In this document: positions 60,560-64,000 of the stretch, one piece after another
Layout: each line of letters opens with the position of its first letter
Position numbering within the stretch: the first letter of the stretch is position 1
Assembly (NCBI RefSeq): GCF_055900595.2
Contig: NZ_CM148325.1
Reading direction: 5' to 3' (one strand)
DNA: 64,000 nt
The notes under the pieces: model-generated
Database searches by the model: none
What the model saw: only the letters and a program-made list of their open reading frames with translations
What the model was told of the DNA's origin: nothing
Made by a program: the position numbers and the translations under genes

Positions 60560-60799
60560 CGAACGCGCCTGATGAAGATCCAGACGATTTAAGCACGGGA
60601 TATTTCGGCTCAGCGTACCGGTCAGCGGAGAACTGGACGACGTCACTGCGAAGCAGTCATTTCAGCGCGGCAGCCCGTCGGGGGATTATTTCTGACAGGT
60701 TTGTAGAAGCAATTTTGCAGTTTTGGCGCGAAAGGTGAGCGTTCATTAATTTGATTTATTCGCATCCATCAACGCTTTTAACTGCTCCGGCGTGCGGCA

Positions 60800-61560
60800 C
60801 TATAATGGTTTTCACAACAAGGAGCCATTTTCTTATACCACTTTCAGAGACCATCCGCTTATGCCACCGCCCTCTACGCAACTGTTTGCAGAGCACCTTC
60901 CCACCGAGTGGATACAGCACCTCCTGACGCTTTCTGCTCATGCGACCATTTGTCGTCTTAACCTGAGCGCGGATGGCGAAGCGGGGATTAGCCTGCTGGC
61001 CCGCAGCGCTGTCACCCAGGAGCGCCAGCGCGTGGGGGCCCCCTGGTGGAATGGCTCTTCCGCCAGACCGCACAGACATGGGGCGCGGAACGTTACCTGA
61101 AGGATGACTGGCACGGCCTGCAACTTTTTGCCATTGATGGCGCACAGTTCAGGACACCTATGAACCTGAGTTGCGTGAATATTATGGCTCTGCCAACACA
61201 TCCACTGAGCGGCAGAGCGCCTACCCGGTCATGCGTCTGGTGGCGTTAATGAATCTGGGAATCACATTCGGCTGAATGCCATGACCGCGGCCTACCGGCG
61301 GAGCGATACAGCGTGAGGCAACTAAAGCGGCGTCAGAAATCAGCTTTAAGTTCGCATTCCTGTTTATCGTGACAGAAATGATAGTGCAGGGAAATACGGC
61401 GTCACCAGGAACCATCCCGAAACGGCTGGAGCATCTGCGGGGTGCTCTGGAAGCGGTGTTCCCACGACTATCAAGGCCGAGGGCTGTTAAGGTATCAAAA
61501 ACCCGTTATCCGGTGAAACACAGTGCTGCCCCGCTTAAGTGACGGCATTGTGTTTCTGAC
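60800..61560 (+). mobile_element. degenerate IS4-family transposase remnant (frameshifted, truncated)
   Basis: Fragmentary frames on the + strand contain IS4-transposase-like segments (VEWLFRQTAQTWGAE ... WHGLQLFAIDGAQFRTP; QSAYPVMRLVALMNLGITF) resembling the N-terminal region of IS4 transposase as I recall it. No intact ORF and no terminal inverted repeats identified. Coordinates approximate. Confidence 0.55.
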
Positions 61561-61712
61561 TGGCCTTAACTTTCCCTGAATCTCTGACGATCCTCACCAT
61601 TGATATTTTCTTCATTCCTCACCAGAGAAATAAAAAATCACTATACTCATCAAAATATGATGATTACCTTTATTCAGGTGATCACCTTACTATTTTATAC
61701 GGAAAATAAATC

Positions 61713-62363
61713 ATGAATATCCGTCAATCATTACATGACCGAATCTATGCAGAATACCCTCAACAGGCTAAAGATATATTACTGTATTTCCCCACTTATG
61801 AAATTATGCCATCGACCATAAAAATGGTTATGATTAATGAGGTGGTAGCTATAACACCGCAAGAAGATTTTTATACACCAGAGTCTGGTTATTTTACGAC
61901 TGTCGCCCGACAGTTAGCGCTGGCTGGATTATCGGCAAGTAGTGGCGAAGTCTTACTCAACCATGGTATCTACCTGACCTCCGCACTGAAACTACCTAAA
62001 ACACAGATCACAGCCACACCCGCGGAGATCATTCTCTGGTCACCTATTGTAGAATGGGAGCTCGAACTCTTTGCCAATATAAAAGTTATTTTCGTTGGCG
62101 GCGATATCGCGCGAAAATGCCTTAACATCATCGCGAAAAAGCAAACACGTAAACATGCCATCCCTTCAACTCCGACGTACAAACTGATGAATAGCGAATT
62201 AGTCTGGAAAGGAATAAGCATACTTCCTGGATATATTCTTACCGGAAAAAACCTGCTCATTGAAAAGTCAAAAATCGAAATGAATGTCGAACAATTAAGA
62301 AAAGGAATTGCGATTTATCGCAATAGTAACAGTAACCATACGAATAATTCAGTTCATGAATAA
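61713..62363 (+). CDS. hypothetical protein (216 aa), AT-rich orphan
   Basis: Complete ORF in an AT-rich segment between the IS remnant and the helicase gene; no recognisable motif. Confidence 0.45.
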   Translation: MNIRQSLHDRIYAEYPQQAKDILLYFPTYEIMPSTIKMVMINEVVAITPQEDFYTPESGYFTTVARQLALAGLSASSGEVLLNHGIYLTSALKLPKTQITATPAEIILWSPIVEWELELFANIKVIFVGGDIARKCLNIIAKKQTRKHAIPSTPTYKLMNSELVWKGISILPGYILTGKNLLIEKSKIEMNVEQLRKGIAIYRNSNSNHTNNSVHE

Positions 62364-62876
62364 GAGATGAATCATTAATAACAAGAAATCACTGACAAAC
62401 CACCTGTAAAAGGTCAATCATTTTAGTTCAATTTCCTTTGTCATGATTATATTTTTATCGTCCTGACGATACTATTAACAATTACAATATTTATACCCTC
62501 CCCTGAACAAACAGAAAAGAACTCATACATTCGTTTATAATTCTGGTAATCCTGGCATCATACGTTTAAAATTTAAGGTGTTTGTTTTATAATCATGGTT
62601 CCAAAGACTATTGGTCACCAGAAAATGCCAGCCTTTTCGTGCCAGCTATATTTGTCCAGTGTGTTACCCCATCCAAAAATCATCCACATCCTGATGTTAC
62701 GTTAGATATAGAGAAAACAGGTTGTACTGTGCAATATGCTAACCGCATAAGCGAATATAATTTCTAAGCTGATATTGTCTGGCTGTTGGGAGCTAAACAA
62801 TATAAATATCGCCAGTTGCCAGAACGGTTATATAGACCAGGAGCGTTTCGGCTCCTGGTCTGTTTCGGACATATTA

Positions 62877-64000
62877 TCAATCAGCCACTAATAGCGGACT
62901 AGGGATACCAGATGATGAAACAAACAGCCCTTTTACGGCACGGGTTGCAGCCACATGCAGTAACGCGCGCTCATTAAATAATGCATCACGCTGTTCAACG
63001 GGATCATCGGATGCTAATGCTTTTATTTCCGGCACAACGCCTTCGTTAATCCCCACCAGGAACACATACTGGAACTCAAGCCCTTTAATACGGTGCATCG
63101 TTGCAACTCGCACGCCTGGGCGTGCATCGCTGTCACCGCTATCATTGCCTAAATTAAATGTCTCAATTCCGGCGTCATTGAGTGCTGATGCGTAGCGGTC
63201 GCAAGCATGTTTAGTACGCGCAGTAATGCAGATATCCTGAGAACGAACCTGATTCGCCAGCAATGCCTGAATTTGCTTGACGAGCGTTGCAGCCTCTTCT
63301 TTGAAATCTGCCGCATGCGTAATCATGGGCTTTTCCCCGTGCAGTAATGACAAATAATCATTACTGGTATCCGCTTCGCCATCGAGGTTATCAACCTTCA
63401 CACCAGTTAACAGCCCAACAGCAAATTGACGCGTCTCTTCTGTGGTCCGATAGTTAATCTTCAATTTTTTACTGCGACGACCACGGACGTTAATACCACA
63501 CTGACCAAGAACGACCTTATTGCGATAAATACGCTGATGCCCATCCCCGACAATAAACAGATCGTTGGGCGACTCGGGAACCAGGCTGCGAATAAGAGTA
63601 AATGCCGGGGCACCGATATCTTGAGCTTCATCGACGACAATACTGCTATAAGGTAGTTGGACCTGCTTTTCTTTAAACAGAACAATAGCCTCATGCATGG
63701 CATCGCCCATTTCGCGCAGTTTGGCACGCGCCATTTGTGCTCTGAATTCTTCGAAAACTGGCCAGATTTTCGCCCGTTGAATACGGGATAACGCTGTACC
63801 ACGTCCAACCCGGCTGACTTTGAGGTATTCCTCCCGGGTGTAAACCGCATTTGGCTGGACAACGCGTTGCCACTCTTCAGCATAGAAATTGTCAGGTAGC
63901 CCCAGTTCGGCAGGTGCCTGCTGCAAGGCATAGTTCCAGCATTTACGTCGCCCTTCATCGCTGTCGTATACCACGCGGAAATCATAACCGTGGCGTTTTA
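62877..64000 (-). CDS. UvrD/Rep-like superfamily 1 helicase, C-terminal part (5' end beyond window)
   Basis: ORF track 62877..63974, whose first M is a GTG; the frame stays open to the window edge. Product contains helicase motifs (VDEAQD, GDGHQRIY, VATMHRIKGLEFQYVFLVG, LLHVAATRA). Position corresponds to yjhR of K-12, which I recall as a pseudogene. Confidence 0.7.
   Translation of the reverse strand, partial: KRHGYDFRVVYDSDEGRRKCWNYALQQAPAELGLPDNFYAEEWQRVVQPNAVYTREEYLKVSRVGRGTALSRIQRAKIWPVFEEFRAQMARAKLREMGDAMHEAIVLFKEKQVQLPYSSIVVDEAQDIGAPAFTLIRSLVPESPNDLFIVGDGHQRIYRNKVVLGQCGINVRGRRSKKLKINYRTTEETRQFAVGLLTGVKVDNLDGEADTSNDYLSLLHGEKPMITHAADFKEEAATLVKQIQALLANQVRSQDICITARTKHACDRYASALNDAGIETFNLGNDSGDSDARPGVRVATMHRIKGLEFQYVFLVGINEGVVPEIKALASDDPVEQRDALFNERALLHVAATRAVKGLFVSSSGIPSPLLVAD

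What the first reader, a model, noticed from the sequence alone, without database searches (positions are those of the whole stretch)
60750..64000. Right-edge accessory patch: IS4-family remnant, AT-rich orphan ORF and UvrD-like helicase
Downstream of nanS lies a decayed IS4-like transposase, then an AT-rich 216-aa ORF with no recognisable motifs and its own long AT-rich 3' flank, then a superfamily 1 helicase gene running off the window. An IS scar next to an orphan low-GC gene and a helicase is typical of eroded defence or mobile islands; the helicase may belong to a system whose partners lie beyond 64 kb.
Basis: partly seen in the sequence, partly recalled or inferred. Interest (0 to 1): 0.5.

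Follow-up and report, generated by a model that had tools for sequence, protein, structure and literature searches.

The report
Edge of known ARMADA defence island
The patch is the worn outer margin of a published E. coli anti-phage island: the helicase is ArmD, last gene of the validated ARMADA type II system, flanked by gene relics and one intact, unstudied DNA-glycosylase-like gene.

Summary
The helicase (62877-64000, minus strand) is residues 332-704 of ArmD. ArmD is the GajB-like UvrD helicase that ends the armABCD operon of ARMADA type II. Its partners ArmC, ArmB and ArmA lie just beyond 64 kb, followed by Druantia III and Zorya II. This is the O-island 172 / tRNA-Leu defence island, validated experimentally in two 2025 preprints. 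It is unrelated to the K-12 yjhR pseudogene.

The "IS4 remnant" (60793-61551) is a decayed ISZ/insZ-like element. It keeps both ends, has an internal deletion, and was inserted into an HNH endonuclease gene.

Part of its AT-rich 3' flank is the relic of a metallo-beta-lactamase-fold gene.

Overall the locus is already known; only the glycosylase-like gene is uncharacterised.

The parts
60742..60792 (-). 3' tail of an HNH endonuclease gene. It is a relic, cut off by the IS element.
   Evidence: 98% identical to the sequence that directly follows nanS, where an HNH endonuclease gene is annotated, in strains without the inserted block. 81% identical to the copy beside the intact HNH gene on the far side of the block in L003. 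K-12 homology ends at 60741.
60793..61551 (+). Decayed ISZ/insZ-like IS4-family insertion sequence. Both terminal repeats are kept. It has an internal deletion of roughly 480 bp and frameshifts.
   Evidence: Three-piece alignments to the plasmid IS4-family copy L013 and to K-12 ISZ. Imperfect end repeats read from the sequences: TGCGGCACTATAA and TGCCGTCACTTAA. NCBIfam transpos_IS4_1 E 3.7e-5. RefSeq: 'transposase, frameshifted'.
61552..61712 (+). AT-rich leader upstream of the UDG-like ORF, containing the 12-bp palindrome AGGTGATCACCT (61676-61687).
   Evidence: G+C 33.5%. Palindrome seen. The stretch is retained in O157:H7 although the ORF is deleted there. No sigma-70 consensus match was found in it.
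61713..62363 (+). Intact 216-aa gene for a divergent UDG-superfamily (DNA glycosylase fold) protein, identical to RefSeq WP_001026378.1.
62364..62591 (.). AT-rich spacer of unknown origin.
   Evidence: Conserved at 97% in O157:H7. No Rfam family at gathering level. No significant fold (third sequence).
62592..62767 (+). Relic of a 421-aa metallo-beta-lactamase-fold gene: the last 57 codons plus the stop.
   Evidence: 98.5% identical to L015 8400-8225, the 3' end of an intact 421-aa ORF in Escherichia sp. E1V33. That protein gives ComEC/Avs1a/LmuA-type MBL hits. No complete E. coli genome keeps the gene whole.
62832..62863 (.). 13-bp-stem G+C-rich hairpin between the convergent armD and the MBL relic; a likely bidirectional terminator.
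   Evidence: Folding: -24.1 kcal/mol (minus strand) and -27.1 kcal/mol (plus strand), z -4.5 and -4.9, with 0 of 200 shuffles folding as well. It lies 14 nt past the armD stop codon.
62877..64000 (-). 3' part of armD: codons 332-704 plus the stop, including Walker B D454. armD is the last gene of the ARMADA type II operon. The gene continues beyond the window.
   Evidence: 0 mismatches to WP_000218180.1 over 373 residues; K266 and D454 fall in the GKT and DEAQD motifs, with the numbering used in PMC12458937. Pfam UvrD-helicase, AAA_19 and UvrD_C. PADLOC GajB E 2.6e-36. Operon context. Literature.

Best explanation
Window 60742-64000 is the nanS-proximal margin of the tRNA-Leu (leuX) hypervariable defence island. 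[quoted passage not shown]

The helicase is ArmD. [quoted passage not shown] It is translationally coupled to ArmC and is the fourth gene of armABCD. Published mutagenesis shows that ARMADA II blocks a broad range of phages directly, without killing the cell. All four genes contribute, and the ArmD Walker A lysine (K266) is essential. The part seen here is the C-terminal 373 residues, including Walker B.

Between nanS and armD lies debris from earlier cargo:
- an HNH endonuclease gene tail;
- a dead ISZ-like IS4 element;
- the 3' relic of an MBL-fold gene.

There is also one still-intact cargo gene, encoding a small stand-alone UDG-fold protein. I infer that this protein is a monofunctional DNA glycosylase. 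It would flip out and excise a base other than plain uracil, a modified or damaged base. The proposed roles are N42/E43 as the water-activating pair, F53/Y54 as the stacking residues, and the P172-x-Y-I-x-T-G-x-N-L-L loop as the wedge. It was acquired horizontally from a lineage related to gut Bacteroidales/Clostridia. It acts independently of ARMADA and is dispensable in E. coli.

Shown: the identities, the context and the fold. Inferred: glycosylase activity, substrate class and residue roles. The confidence given (0.85) is for the identification of the locus (ArmD, ARMADA II island margin, relics, UDG fold); the inferred glycosylase activity on a non-uracil base I rate at about 0.5.
For: ArmD / ARMADA II:
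- Identical protein and residue numbering.
- 4-bp overlap with the 2113-aa DruE/YprA-like gene, then the methyltransferase and the SNF2 helicase in strict order.
- PADLOC and NCBIfam hits: GajB for ArmD; DruE for ArmC; type IIG/DrmMI (PADLOC) and weak BREX PglX (NCBIfam) for ArmB; DrmD for ArmA.
- Weak RelE-like N-terminal hit.
- EDL933 z5899-z5902 is the same locus, with the same IS remnant.
- Experimental validation is in PMC12458937 and bioRxiv 10.1101/2025.09.22.677730.

Island margin:
- K-12 homology stops at 60741.
- HNH tail. ISZ-like remnant. MBL relic.

UDG-fold gene:
- A conserved family with 36 invariant columns, all kept by the E. coli copy. All 24 homologues in the alignment hit Pfam UDG at E <= 0.001.
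- N-terminus MNIRQ is shared with homologues, which supports the start codon.
- The protein has a single cysteine, so it has no Fe-S cluster (sequence).

Independence from ARMADA:
- No UDG-like gene within 6 kb of armD in the 11 loci from other genera that extend past armD.
- Deleted in O157:H7, whose ARMADA is functional.
Against: Only the last 1124 nt of armD lie inside the window. The rest of the operon is inferred from genomes 99.4-99.6% identical over 60560-64000, not read from this strain.

For the UDG-like gene nothing here shows expression or activity:
- No sigma-70 consensus match lies in its leader.
- The E. coli copy departs from the family consensus at 17 of 66 highly conserved columns, against 0-8 for other members. 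This includes two conserved arginines, R159M and R169S.
- The asparagine at the position I equate, from memory of family 1 and 4 motifs, with the base-reading Asn is serine here.
- The gene has been lost repeatedly: a clean deletion in O157:H7, an IS1 truncation, a fragment in Escherichia sp. E1V33, and truncated variants on 21 and 13 contigs.

These points fit decay as well as neofunctionalisation.
Confidence: 0.85

Rival explanations
1. The 216-aa ORF is a stand-alone Brig-type anti-phage DNA glycosylase. It would excise a phage-specific modified base and leave abasic sites that stop replication. That would fill the gap left by Druantia III and ARMADA II, which do not protect against hypermodified T-even phages.
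For: - UDG fold with non-canonical motifs, as in Brig1, Brig2 and Brig3.
- Position inside a dense defence island.
- Low G+C and horizontal origin, traits reported for Brig2-like genes.
- It travels with armD into a tRNA-Phe island as well.
- ARMADA II and Druantia III fail against hypermodified Tevenvirinae.
Against: - No hit in PADLOC, which predates Brig, or in the 2026 NCBIfam.
- Six sampled homologue neighbourhoods are not defence islands. They hold detoxification and acetyltransferase clusters, a pyrimidine nucleoside phosphorylase, or a mobilisable element.
- Brig1 and Brig3 have key residues at positions (Y121/E147; D127/N225) that suggest larger proteins, and Brig1's 42 homologues are mainly actinobacterial.
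- The Brig2 homologue taxonomy (mostly Pseudomonadota) differs from this family's, and the family motifs were not found in the truncated supplement.
- Frequent loss in E. coli.
Confidence: 0.2
2. The ORF is a DNA-repair glycosylase for chemically damaged or adducted bases. It would be part of the stress/detoxification gene sets of gut anaerobes, and merely a hitch-hiking passenger in the E. coli island.
For: - In Muribaculaceae it sits in a conserved tautomerase - FMN reductase - UDG-like operon with 4-bp overlaps, among HxlR regulators, DJ-1/PfpI, acetyltransferases and chloramphenicol acetyltransferase (CAT).
- In a Clostridia genome it directly follows a pyrimidine-nucleoside phosphorylase gene, near a thymidylate-kinase-domain gene.
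- It is always a small stand-alone protein of about 200 aa.
Against: - Gene context is circumstantial and differs between lineages.
- The E. coli copy is the most divergent member of the family.
- E. coli already has its known repair glycosylases (background knowledge).
- The gene is rare in E. coli: 92 of 5426 genomes.
Confidence: 0.3
3. In E. coli the ORF is a non-functional or barely expressed leftover on its way to loss, like its neighbours.
For: - It is surrounded by relics.
- 17 of 66 conserved columns are altered.
- It has been removed or truncated independently at least three times, and is complete in only about a sixth of the genomes that carry this armD flank.
- No consensus promoter.
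Against: - The frame is intact over 216 codons, with every family-invariant residue kept.
- The common alleles differ by single substitutions and occur on 260 and at least 1000 contigs.
- There is one synonymous and no non-synonymous difference between two strains. The sample is too small to be decisive.
Confidence: 0.3
4. The ORF is an accessory fifth component of ARMADA II.
For: It is adjacent and convergent to armD. It was co-transferred with armD to a second tRNA site.
Against: - Absent beside armD in Citrobacter, Siccibacter, Mangrovibacter, Enterobacter, Leclercia, Serratia, Yersinia, Aeromonas and Vibrio loci that extend past the gene; nucleotide homology there stops at about the armD stop codon.
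- ARMADA II cloned as the four-gene cluster from the O157 strain NCTC 12900, and the native system of EDL933, where the ORF is deleted, are both active.
- An MBL-fold gene once lay between the ORF and armD.
Confidence: 0.04
5. The helicase is the yjhR pseudogene remnant, an orphan without partners.
For: It occupies the same chromosomal position next to nanS as yjhR does in K-12.
Against: - No significant similarity between YjhR and ArmD (best E 1.2).
- No nucleotide match beyond 60741.
- yjhR is instead 69% identical to the C-terminus of an unrelated 1173-aa SF1 helicase-PLD protein.
- The gene here is full-length in related genomes and lies in an operon.
Confidence: 0.01

Closest known systems
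ArmD of ARMADA type II (armABCD; E. coli EDL933 z5902, NCTC 12900, ATCC 8739)
   Same: Same protein. It has 704 aa, a GajB-like UvrD core, Walker A K266 and Walker B D454. It is the last gene after ArmC, with a 4-bp overlap, in the same island with Druantia III and Zorya II and the same nan/fim boundary.
   Different: Nothing of substance. This allele (WP_000218180.1) has a different RefSeq protein accession from the EDL933 copy (WP_000218177.1), and the DNA is 97% identical over 62367-64000. Only residues 332-704 are inside the window.
GajB of Gabija
   Same: UvrD-type superfamily 1 helicase core; best PADLOC family (E 2.6e-36).
   Different: There is no GajA partner. ArmD has an extra N-terminal domain of about 240 residues with a RelE-like part, and it works within a four-gene methyltransferase/helicase system.
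Brig1 / Brig2 / Brig3 anti-phage DNA glycosylases
   Same: UDG-superfamily fold with divergent active-site residues. Small genes in horizontally acquired, A+T-rich defence-island DNA.
   Different: No sequence relationship could be shown. The taxonomic spread differs. Homologues of this ORF are not in defence islands. No phenotype is known.
Family 4 / family 5 uracil-DNA glycosylases and UdgX
   Different: Only 13-19% identity. A single cysteine, so the four-cysteine Fe-S cluster is missing. The first motif is I-N-E-V-V rather than G-E-x-P-G or G-L-A-P-A. The second motif has Y-I where, as I recall, these families have a histidine (motif comparison from memory of those families).
ISZ / insZ of E. 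coli K-12 (IS4 family)
   Same: 80-92% identical over three blocks. The same ends. It is also a pseudogene.
   Different: A separate copy at a different locus, with its own internal deletion.

Membership tests
ARMADA type II defence system (ArmD component) | [quoted passage not shown] | tested here: met
   Pfam UvrD-helicase E 7e-23 and UvrD_C. PADLOC GajB E 2.6e-36. K266 lies in GAGTGKT and D454 in VVDEAQD. D454 is inside the window; K266 is read from the identical protein in L001.
ARMADA type II defence system (ArmD component) | N-terminal RelE-like domain fused to the helicase | tested here: inconclusive
   Only a weak PHROG RelE-like toxin hit at residues 8-92 (E 0.0034). The domain lies outside the window. 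The assignment rests on PMC12458937.
ARMADA type II defence system (ArmD component) | Strict gene order: SNF2/BrxHII-like helicase, PglX-like methyltransferase, YprA-like helicase-nuclease, then the GajB-like helicase | tested here: met
   The order is 952 aa (DrmD E 1.4e-99), 1644 aa (type IIG / DrmMI), 2113 aa (DruE E 5e-104, with a C-terminal nuclease-like hit), then 704 aa. It is seen in L001/L003, L002 and EDL933 L005. It was read from near-identical genomes, not from the window itself.
ARMADA type II defence system (ArmD component) | Anti-phage activity | not testable with these tools
   Reported for the E. coli NCTC 12900, ATCC 8739 and EDL933 systems.
Uracil-DNA glycosylase superfamily (fold level) | Alpha/beta UDG fold | tested here: met
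Family 4 / 5 UDG | Four cysteines binding a 4Fe-4S cluster | tested here: not met
   The protein has a single cysteine, C135 (sequence).
Family 1 / 2 / 4 UDG | Canonical first motif (GQDPY, GINPG or GE[AG]PG) and a histidine in the second motif | tested here: not met
   The family consensus is M-I-N-E-V-V-P after strand 1 and P-S-Y-I-M-T-G-x-N-L-L after the last strand, with no histidine. Motif definitions are from established knowledge of these families. The positional mapping is inferred, not superposed.
Brig-type defence glycosylases | Sequence homology to Brig1, Brig2 or Brig3 | not testable with these tools
   Their sequences are not held here. The accession and the family motifs are absent from the truncated Brig2 supplement. 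No Brig structure appeared among the listed PDB matches.
Brig-type defence glycosylases | Excision of a phage-specific modified base, and protection against such phages | not testable with these tools
   Needs plaque assays and glycosylase assays.
IS4 family insertion sequence | DDE transposase of IS4 type between terminal inverted repeats | tested here: met
   It meets this only as a dead copy. NCBIfam transpos_IS4_1 hits one fragment. It is homologous to annotated IS4-family elements and to ISZ. Both imperfect end repeats are present, but the frame is broken and about 480 bp are missing.

The most novel reading that the evidence does not exclude
The 216-aa UDG-fold gene founds a new, small clade of stand-alone DNA glycosylases. 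E. coli would have captured it from gut anaerobes and placed it beside ARMADA II as a Brig-like defence. It would excise a modified phage base and so cover the hypermodified phages that ARMADA II and Druantia III miss. Its repeated loss would reflect a cost when such phages are absent.
Probability: 0.15. Interest if true: 0.6.

Novelty: already known. Interest (0 to 1): 0.25.

Why it matters
The main result is a clean identification. A helicase that looked orphaned at a window edge is ArmD, part of a defence system characterised in 2025. That system accounts for much of the phage resistance of O157:H7 and of other E. coli carrying this island.

The margin also shows how the tRNA-Leu / nan hot spot turns cargo over. 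Relics of an HNH endonuclease gene, an IS element and an MBL-fold gene lie there, and K-12 holds a different relic, yjhR, at the same place.

The one open item is the UDG-fold gene. If it proved to be an anti-phage or adduct-specific glycosylase, it would add a further clade to the recently recognised defence glycosylases, and an example of gene flow from gut anaerobes into E. coli. That remains untested.

Tried and rejected
- PADLOC, NCBIfam and PHROG profiles gave nothing for the 216-aa protein. The PDB sequence search gave only a marginal family 5 UDG match.
- Rfam (E <= 1) found only two chance snoRNA-like matches. There are no tRNA genes in 60000-64000.
- I searched for a direct repeat of the tRNA-Leu 3' end that would mark an element boundary. 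No shared 13-mer was found in the window or in L003.
- I tested whether the UDG-like gene is a conserved neighbour of armD. It is not, outside Escherichia.
- I tested whether the MBL-fold gene pairs with a UDG-like gene elsewhere. It does not in the three neighbourhoods read.
- I looked for this protein or its motifs in the Brig2 paper's supplement and found nothing, but the file is truncated. A metagenomic-selection paper mentions Brig1 only in passing.
- The yjhR identity was rejected.
- My per-segment mismatch counts were spoiled by a 1-bp offset and are not used. Only the codon comparison of the ORF is.
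Full report
**What is in the sequence.** The window is E. coli DNA from the fim/nan region.
- ORF listing and composition confirm the 216-aa ORF at 61713-62363 on the plus strand. Its G+C is 40.1%, against 47.3% for the window. Its flanks are 33.5% and 36.3% G+C.
- A long minus-strand ORF runs from 62877 off the right end.
- Megablast against 5426 complete E. coli genomes shows that some part of 60560-64000 occurs in 5233 genomes. At least 80% of it occurs in only 445.
- Homology with K-12 ends at window 60741, immediately after nanS. Everything to the right is accessory DNA.

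**The helicase is ArmD.** In genomes 99.4-99.6% identical over 60560-64000, the minus-strand gene is 704 codons long. It overlaps the stop codon of a 2113-aa gene by 4 bp. That gene is preceded by a 1644-aa and a 952-aa gene.
- Profile searches identify the four products as follows:
  - a DrmD-like SNF2 helicase;
  - a type IIG / DrmMI / PglX-like methyltransferase;
  - a DruE/YprA-like helicase with a C-terminal nuclease-like region;
  - a GajB-like UvrD helicase.
- Upstream follow a DruH/DruE pair, zorA2-zorB2-zorE, further defence genes (HNH, a phosphorothioate-dependent endonuclease, Wadjet, BrxR), an integrase remnant and tRNA-Leu.
- This is the array described in two 2025 preprints: armABCD (ARMADA type II) with Druantia III and Zorya II on O-island 172 of EDL933, and at tRNA-Leu or tRNA-Phe in other strains. 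Those papers report broad, non-abortive phage protection, a need for all four genes, loss of protection with ArmD K266A, and partial loss with D454N.
- The window's translated fragment is identical to residues 332-704 of WP_000218180.1. In the full protein K266 and D454 fall in the Walker motifs.
- EDL933 has the same layout, including the IS remnant next to nanS.
- The K-12 yjhR product shows no significant similarity to ArmD. It is instead 69% identical to the C-terminal 338 residues of a 1173-aa SF1 helicase-PLD protein of Pantoea. So yjhR is a relic of different cargo at the same spot.

**The IS remnant and the island boundary.**
- Window 60742-60792 is 98% identical to the sequence that follows nanS in strains lacking the array, where it forms the 3' end of an HNH endonuclease gene.
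- At 60793 an IS4-family element begins. It aligns in three blocks to K-12 ISZ/insZ (80, 92 and 83% identity) and to a longer plasmid copy.
- Both imperfect terminal repeats are present. About 480 bp of the interior are missing and the frame is broken. One piece still scores against the NCBIfam IS4 transposase model.
- The element therefore marks where the array abuts the older HNH gene. No tRNA-derived direct repeat was found.

**The 216-aa ORF.** It has no hit in PADLOC, NCBIfam or PHROGs, and only a marginal Pfam UDG hit. Beyond that the evidence for a UDG fold is strong.
- *Homologues.* Outside E. coli and Shigella, the protein database holds about a hundred homologues of 184-206 aa at 36-48% identity. 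They come from Muribaculaceae, Duncaniella, Clostridia and metagenomes, and nearly all carry Pfam UDG.
- *Conserved motifs.* The alignment shows 36 invariant columns, all kept by the E. coli protein. They include I-N-E-V-V after the first strand, F53, G-x-Y-x-T-x-A-x-K-x-P-K, G-D-x-A-x-K, and P-x-Y-I-x-T-G-x-N-L-L-I-E-K-x-K.
- *Structure.* AlphaFold2 gives pLDDT 90.
  - Foldseek agrees.
  - Phage UDG-like proteins match only at the same remote level.
- *Active site.* The protein has one cysteine, so no Fe-S cluster. The canonical first-motif and histidine-motif signatures of families 1, 2 and 4 are absent. I take the asparagine in the family motif I-T-N-A-V-K to be the base-reading Asn of families 1 and 4, from memory of those families. 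That position is serine in E. coli.
- *Family size.* The family is small: 437 cluster representatives at E <= 0.001 among 1.84 billion, almost all stand-alone.
- I therefore regard it as a real, divergent UDG-superfamily enzyme, probably acting on a base other than uracil. That last step is inference.

**Is the ORF part of ARMADA, or a defence gene at all?**
- *Not an ARMADA component.* Fourteen loci encoding ArmD relatives were fetched from species-representative genomes. Of the thirteen outside Escherichia, eleven hold at least 6 kb past armD and none of those has a UDG-like gene there; two hold too little flank to test (one contig ends inside armD). The eleven comprise Citrobacter, Siccibacter, Mangrovibacter, two Enterobacter, Leclercia, Serratia, Yersinia, Aeromonas and two Vibrio. 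The untested two are an Aeromonadaceae MAG and a Clostridiales MAG. Nucleotide homology stops at about the armD stop codon.
- *Rare and repeatedly lost in E. coli.*
  - The complete ORF region occurs in only 92 genomes.
  - About 350 genomes, mostly O157:H7, have a clean deletion that leaves ATGAATAA, with the leader and 3' flank intact.
  - In a tRNA-Phe island an IS1 truncates the ORF at 62199, yet the remaining part is still joined to armD at 99.6% identity. So the gene was already beside armD when the array moved.
  - Escherichia sp. E1V33 keeps only a 77%-identical fragment.
- *Homologue neighbourhoods are not defence islands.*
  - Muribaculaceae have a conserved tautomerase - FMN reductase - UDG-like operon, set among HxlR regulators, DJ-1/PfpI, acetyltransferases and chloramphenicol acetyltransferase (CAT).
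  - In a Clostridia genome the gene follows a pyrimidine nucleoside phosphorylase.
  - One copy lies on a mobilisable integrative element, and another among housekeeping genes.
- *Signs of divergence or decay.* The E. coli protein departs from consensus at 17 of 66 highly conserved columns, against 0-8 for the others. Even so, common alleles differ only by single substitutions, and two strains differ by one synonymous change.
- These data leave three readings of comparable weight:
  - a Brig-like defence glycosylase (compare; the papers do not mention this gene);
  - a repair glycosylase carried along as a passenger;
  - a gene in decay.

**The AT-rich 3' flank.**
- Window 62592-62767 is the last 57 codons and stop of a 421-aa metallo-beta-lactamase-fold gene. 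That gene is intact, and convergent with armD, in Escherichia sp. E1V33. No complete E. coli genome retains it whole.
- Its family is widespread in Proteobacteria and lies in defence or mobile-element islands. It has weak similarity to defence-associated MBL proteins.
- A 13-bp-stem hairpin at 62832-62863 lies between this relic and the armD stop codon (z about -4.5 to -4.9).
- The stretch 62364-62591 remains unexplained.

**Verdict.** The system is already published, so the finding as a whole is known biology. The UDG-fold gene is the only uncharacterised element. It deserves a simple phage-plating and glycosylase test, but present evidence does not favour a defence role over the alternatives.

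Noticed in passing
window 59758-60738 (+): nanS carries a 1-bp deletion near 60548 relative to K-12 (GAAAGAGG becomes GAAGAGG). The frame stops at 60559, giving 267 instead of 326 residues. nanS is also annotated as a partial pseudogene in CFSAN061771, EDL933 and strain S3.
   Followed up: partly
window 62592-62767; L015 8225-9490: Relic of a 421-aa MBL-fold gene that is intact only in Escherichia sp. E1V33. Its homologues (31-50% identity) are widespread in Proteobacteria. They sit as single genes in defence or mobile islands: next to GmrSD, an MmeI-like enzyme and T5orf172 in Serratia, and next to McrBC and anti-restriction genes in Pantoea. This could be an undescribed stand-alone defence gene.
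   Followed up: partly
L004 9016-10032 (K-12 yjhR); L036 9577-13098: K-12 yjhR is 69% identical to the C-terminal 338 residues of a 1173-aa SF1 helicase-PLD protein of Pantoea stewartii. That protein lies two genes from the MBL-fold homologue. The nanS-proximal hot spot may once have held an MBL plus helicase-PLD module.
   Followed up: partly
L003 33578-34240: Beyond Zorya II in CFSAN061771 lies a second nan fragment. It is a nanM 5' piece (96% identical over the 84 bp compared) joined to a nanS 3' end plus HNH tail (81% identical to window 60610-60792). The roughly 32-kb array is therefore bracketed by repeated nan/HNH sequence, which suggests acquisition by recombination rather than site-specific integration.
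   Followed up: no
window 61676-61687: Perfect 12-bp palindrome AGGTGATCACCT, containing a GATC site, 26 nt upstream of the UDG-like start codon. It could be an operator.
   Followed up: no
window 62827-62875: The hairpin region downstream of armD matches 46-49 nt (96-98%) of plasmid records at loci annotated 'terminase' (hits H69, H70).
   Followed up: no
L007-L010 and L032, around 7238-8606: Muribaculaceae keep a conserved operon of 4-oxalocrotonate-tautomerase-like, FMN-reductase and UDG-like genes with 4-bp overlaps. It is embedded in arrays of small detoxification and acetyltransferase genes.
   Followed up: no
window 60657-60746 (-): A 30-codon ORF antisense to the nanS 3' end is annotated 'hypothetical protein' in RefSeq. 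It corresponds in position to the K-12 small protein YthB, but its start lies in island-specific sequence.
   Followed up: no
L015 10334-14078: In Escherichia sp. E1V33 the ARMADA island abuts uxuA-uxuB-uxuR directly, with no fim or nan genes between. The same array thus has a different chromosomal boundary in that lineage.
   Followed up: no
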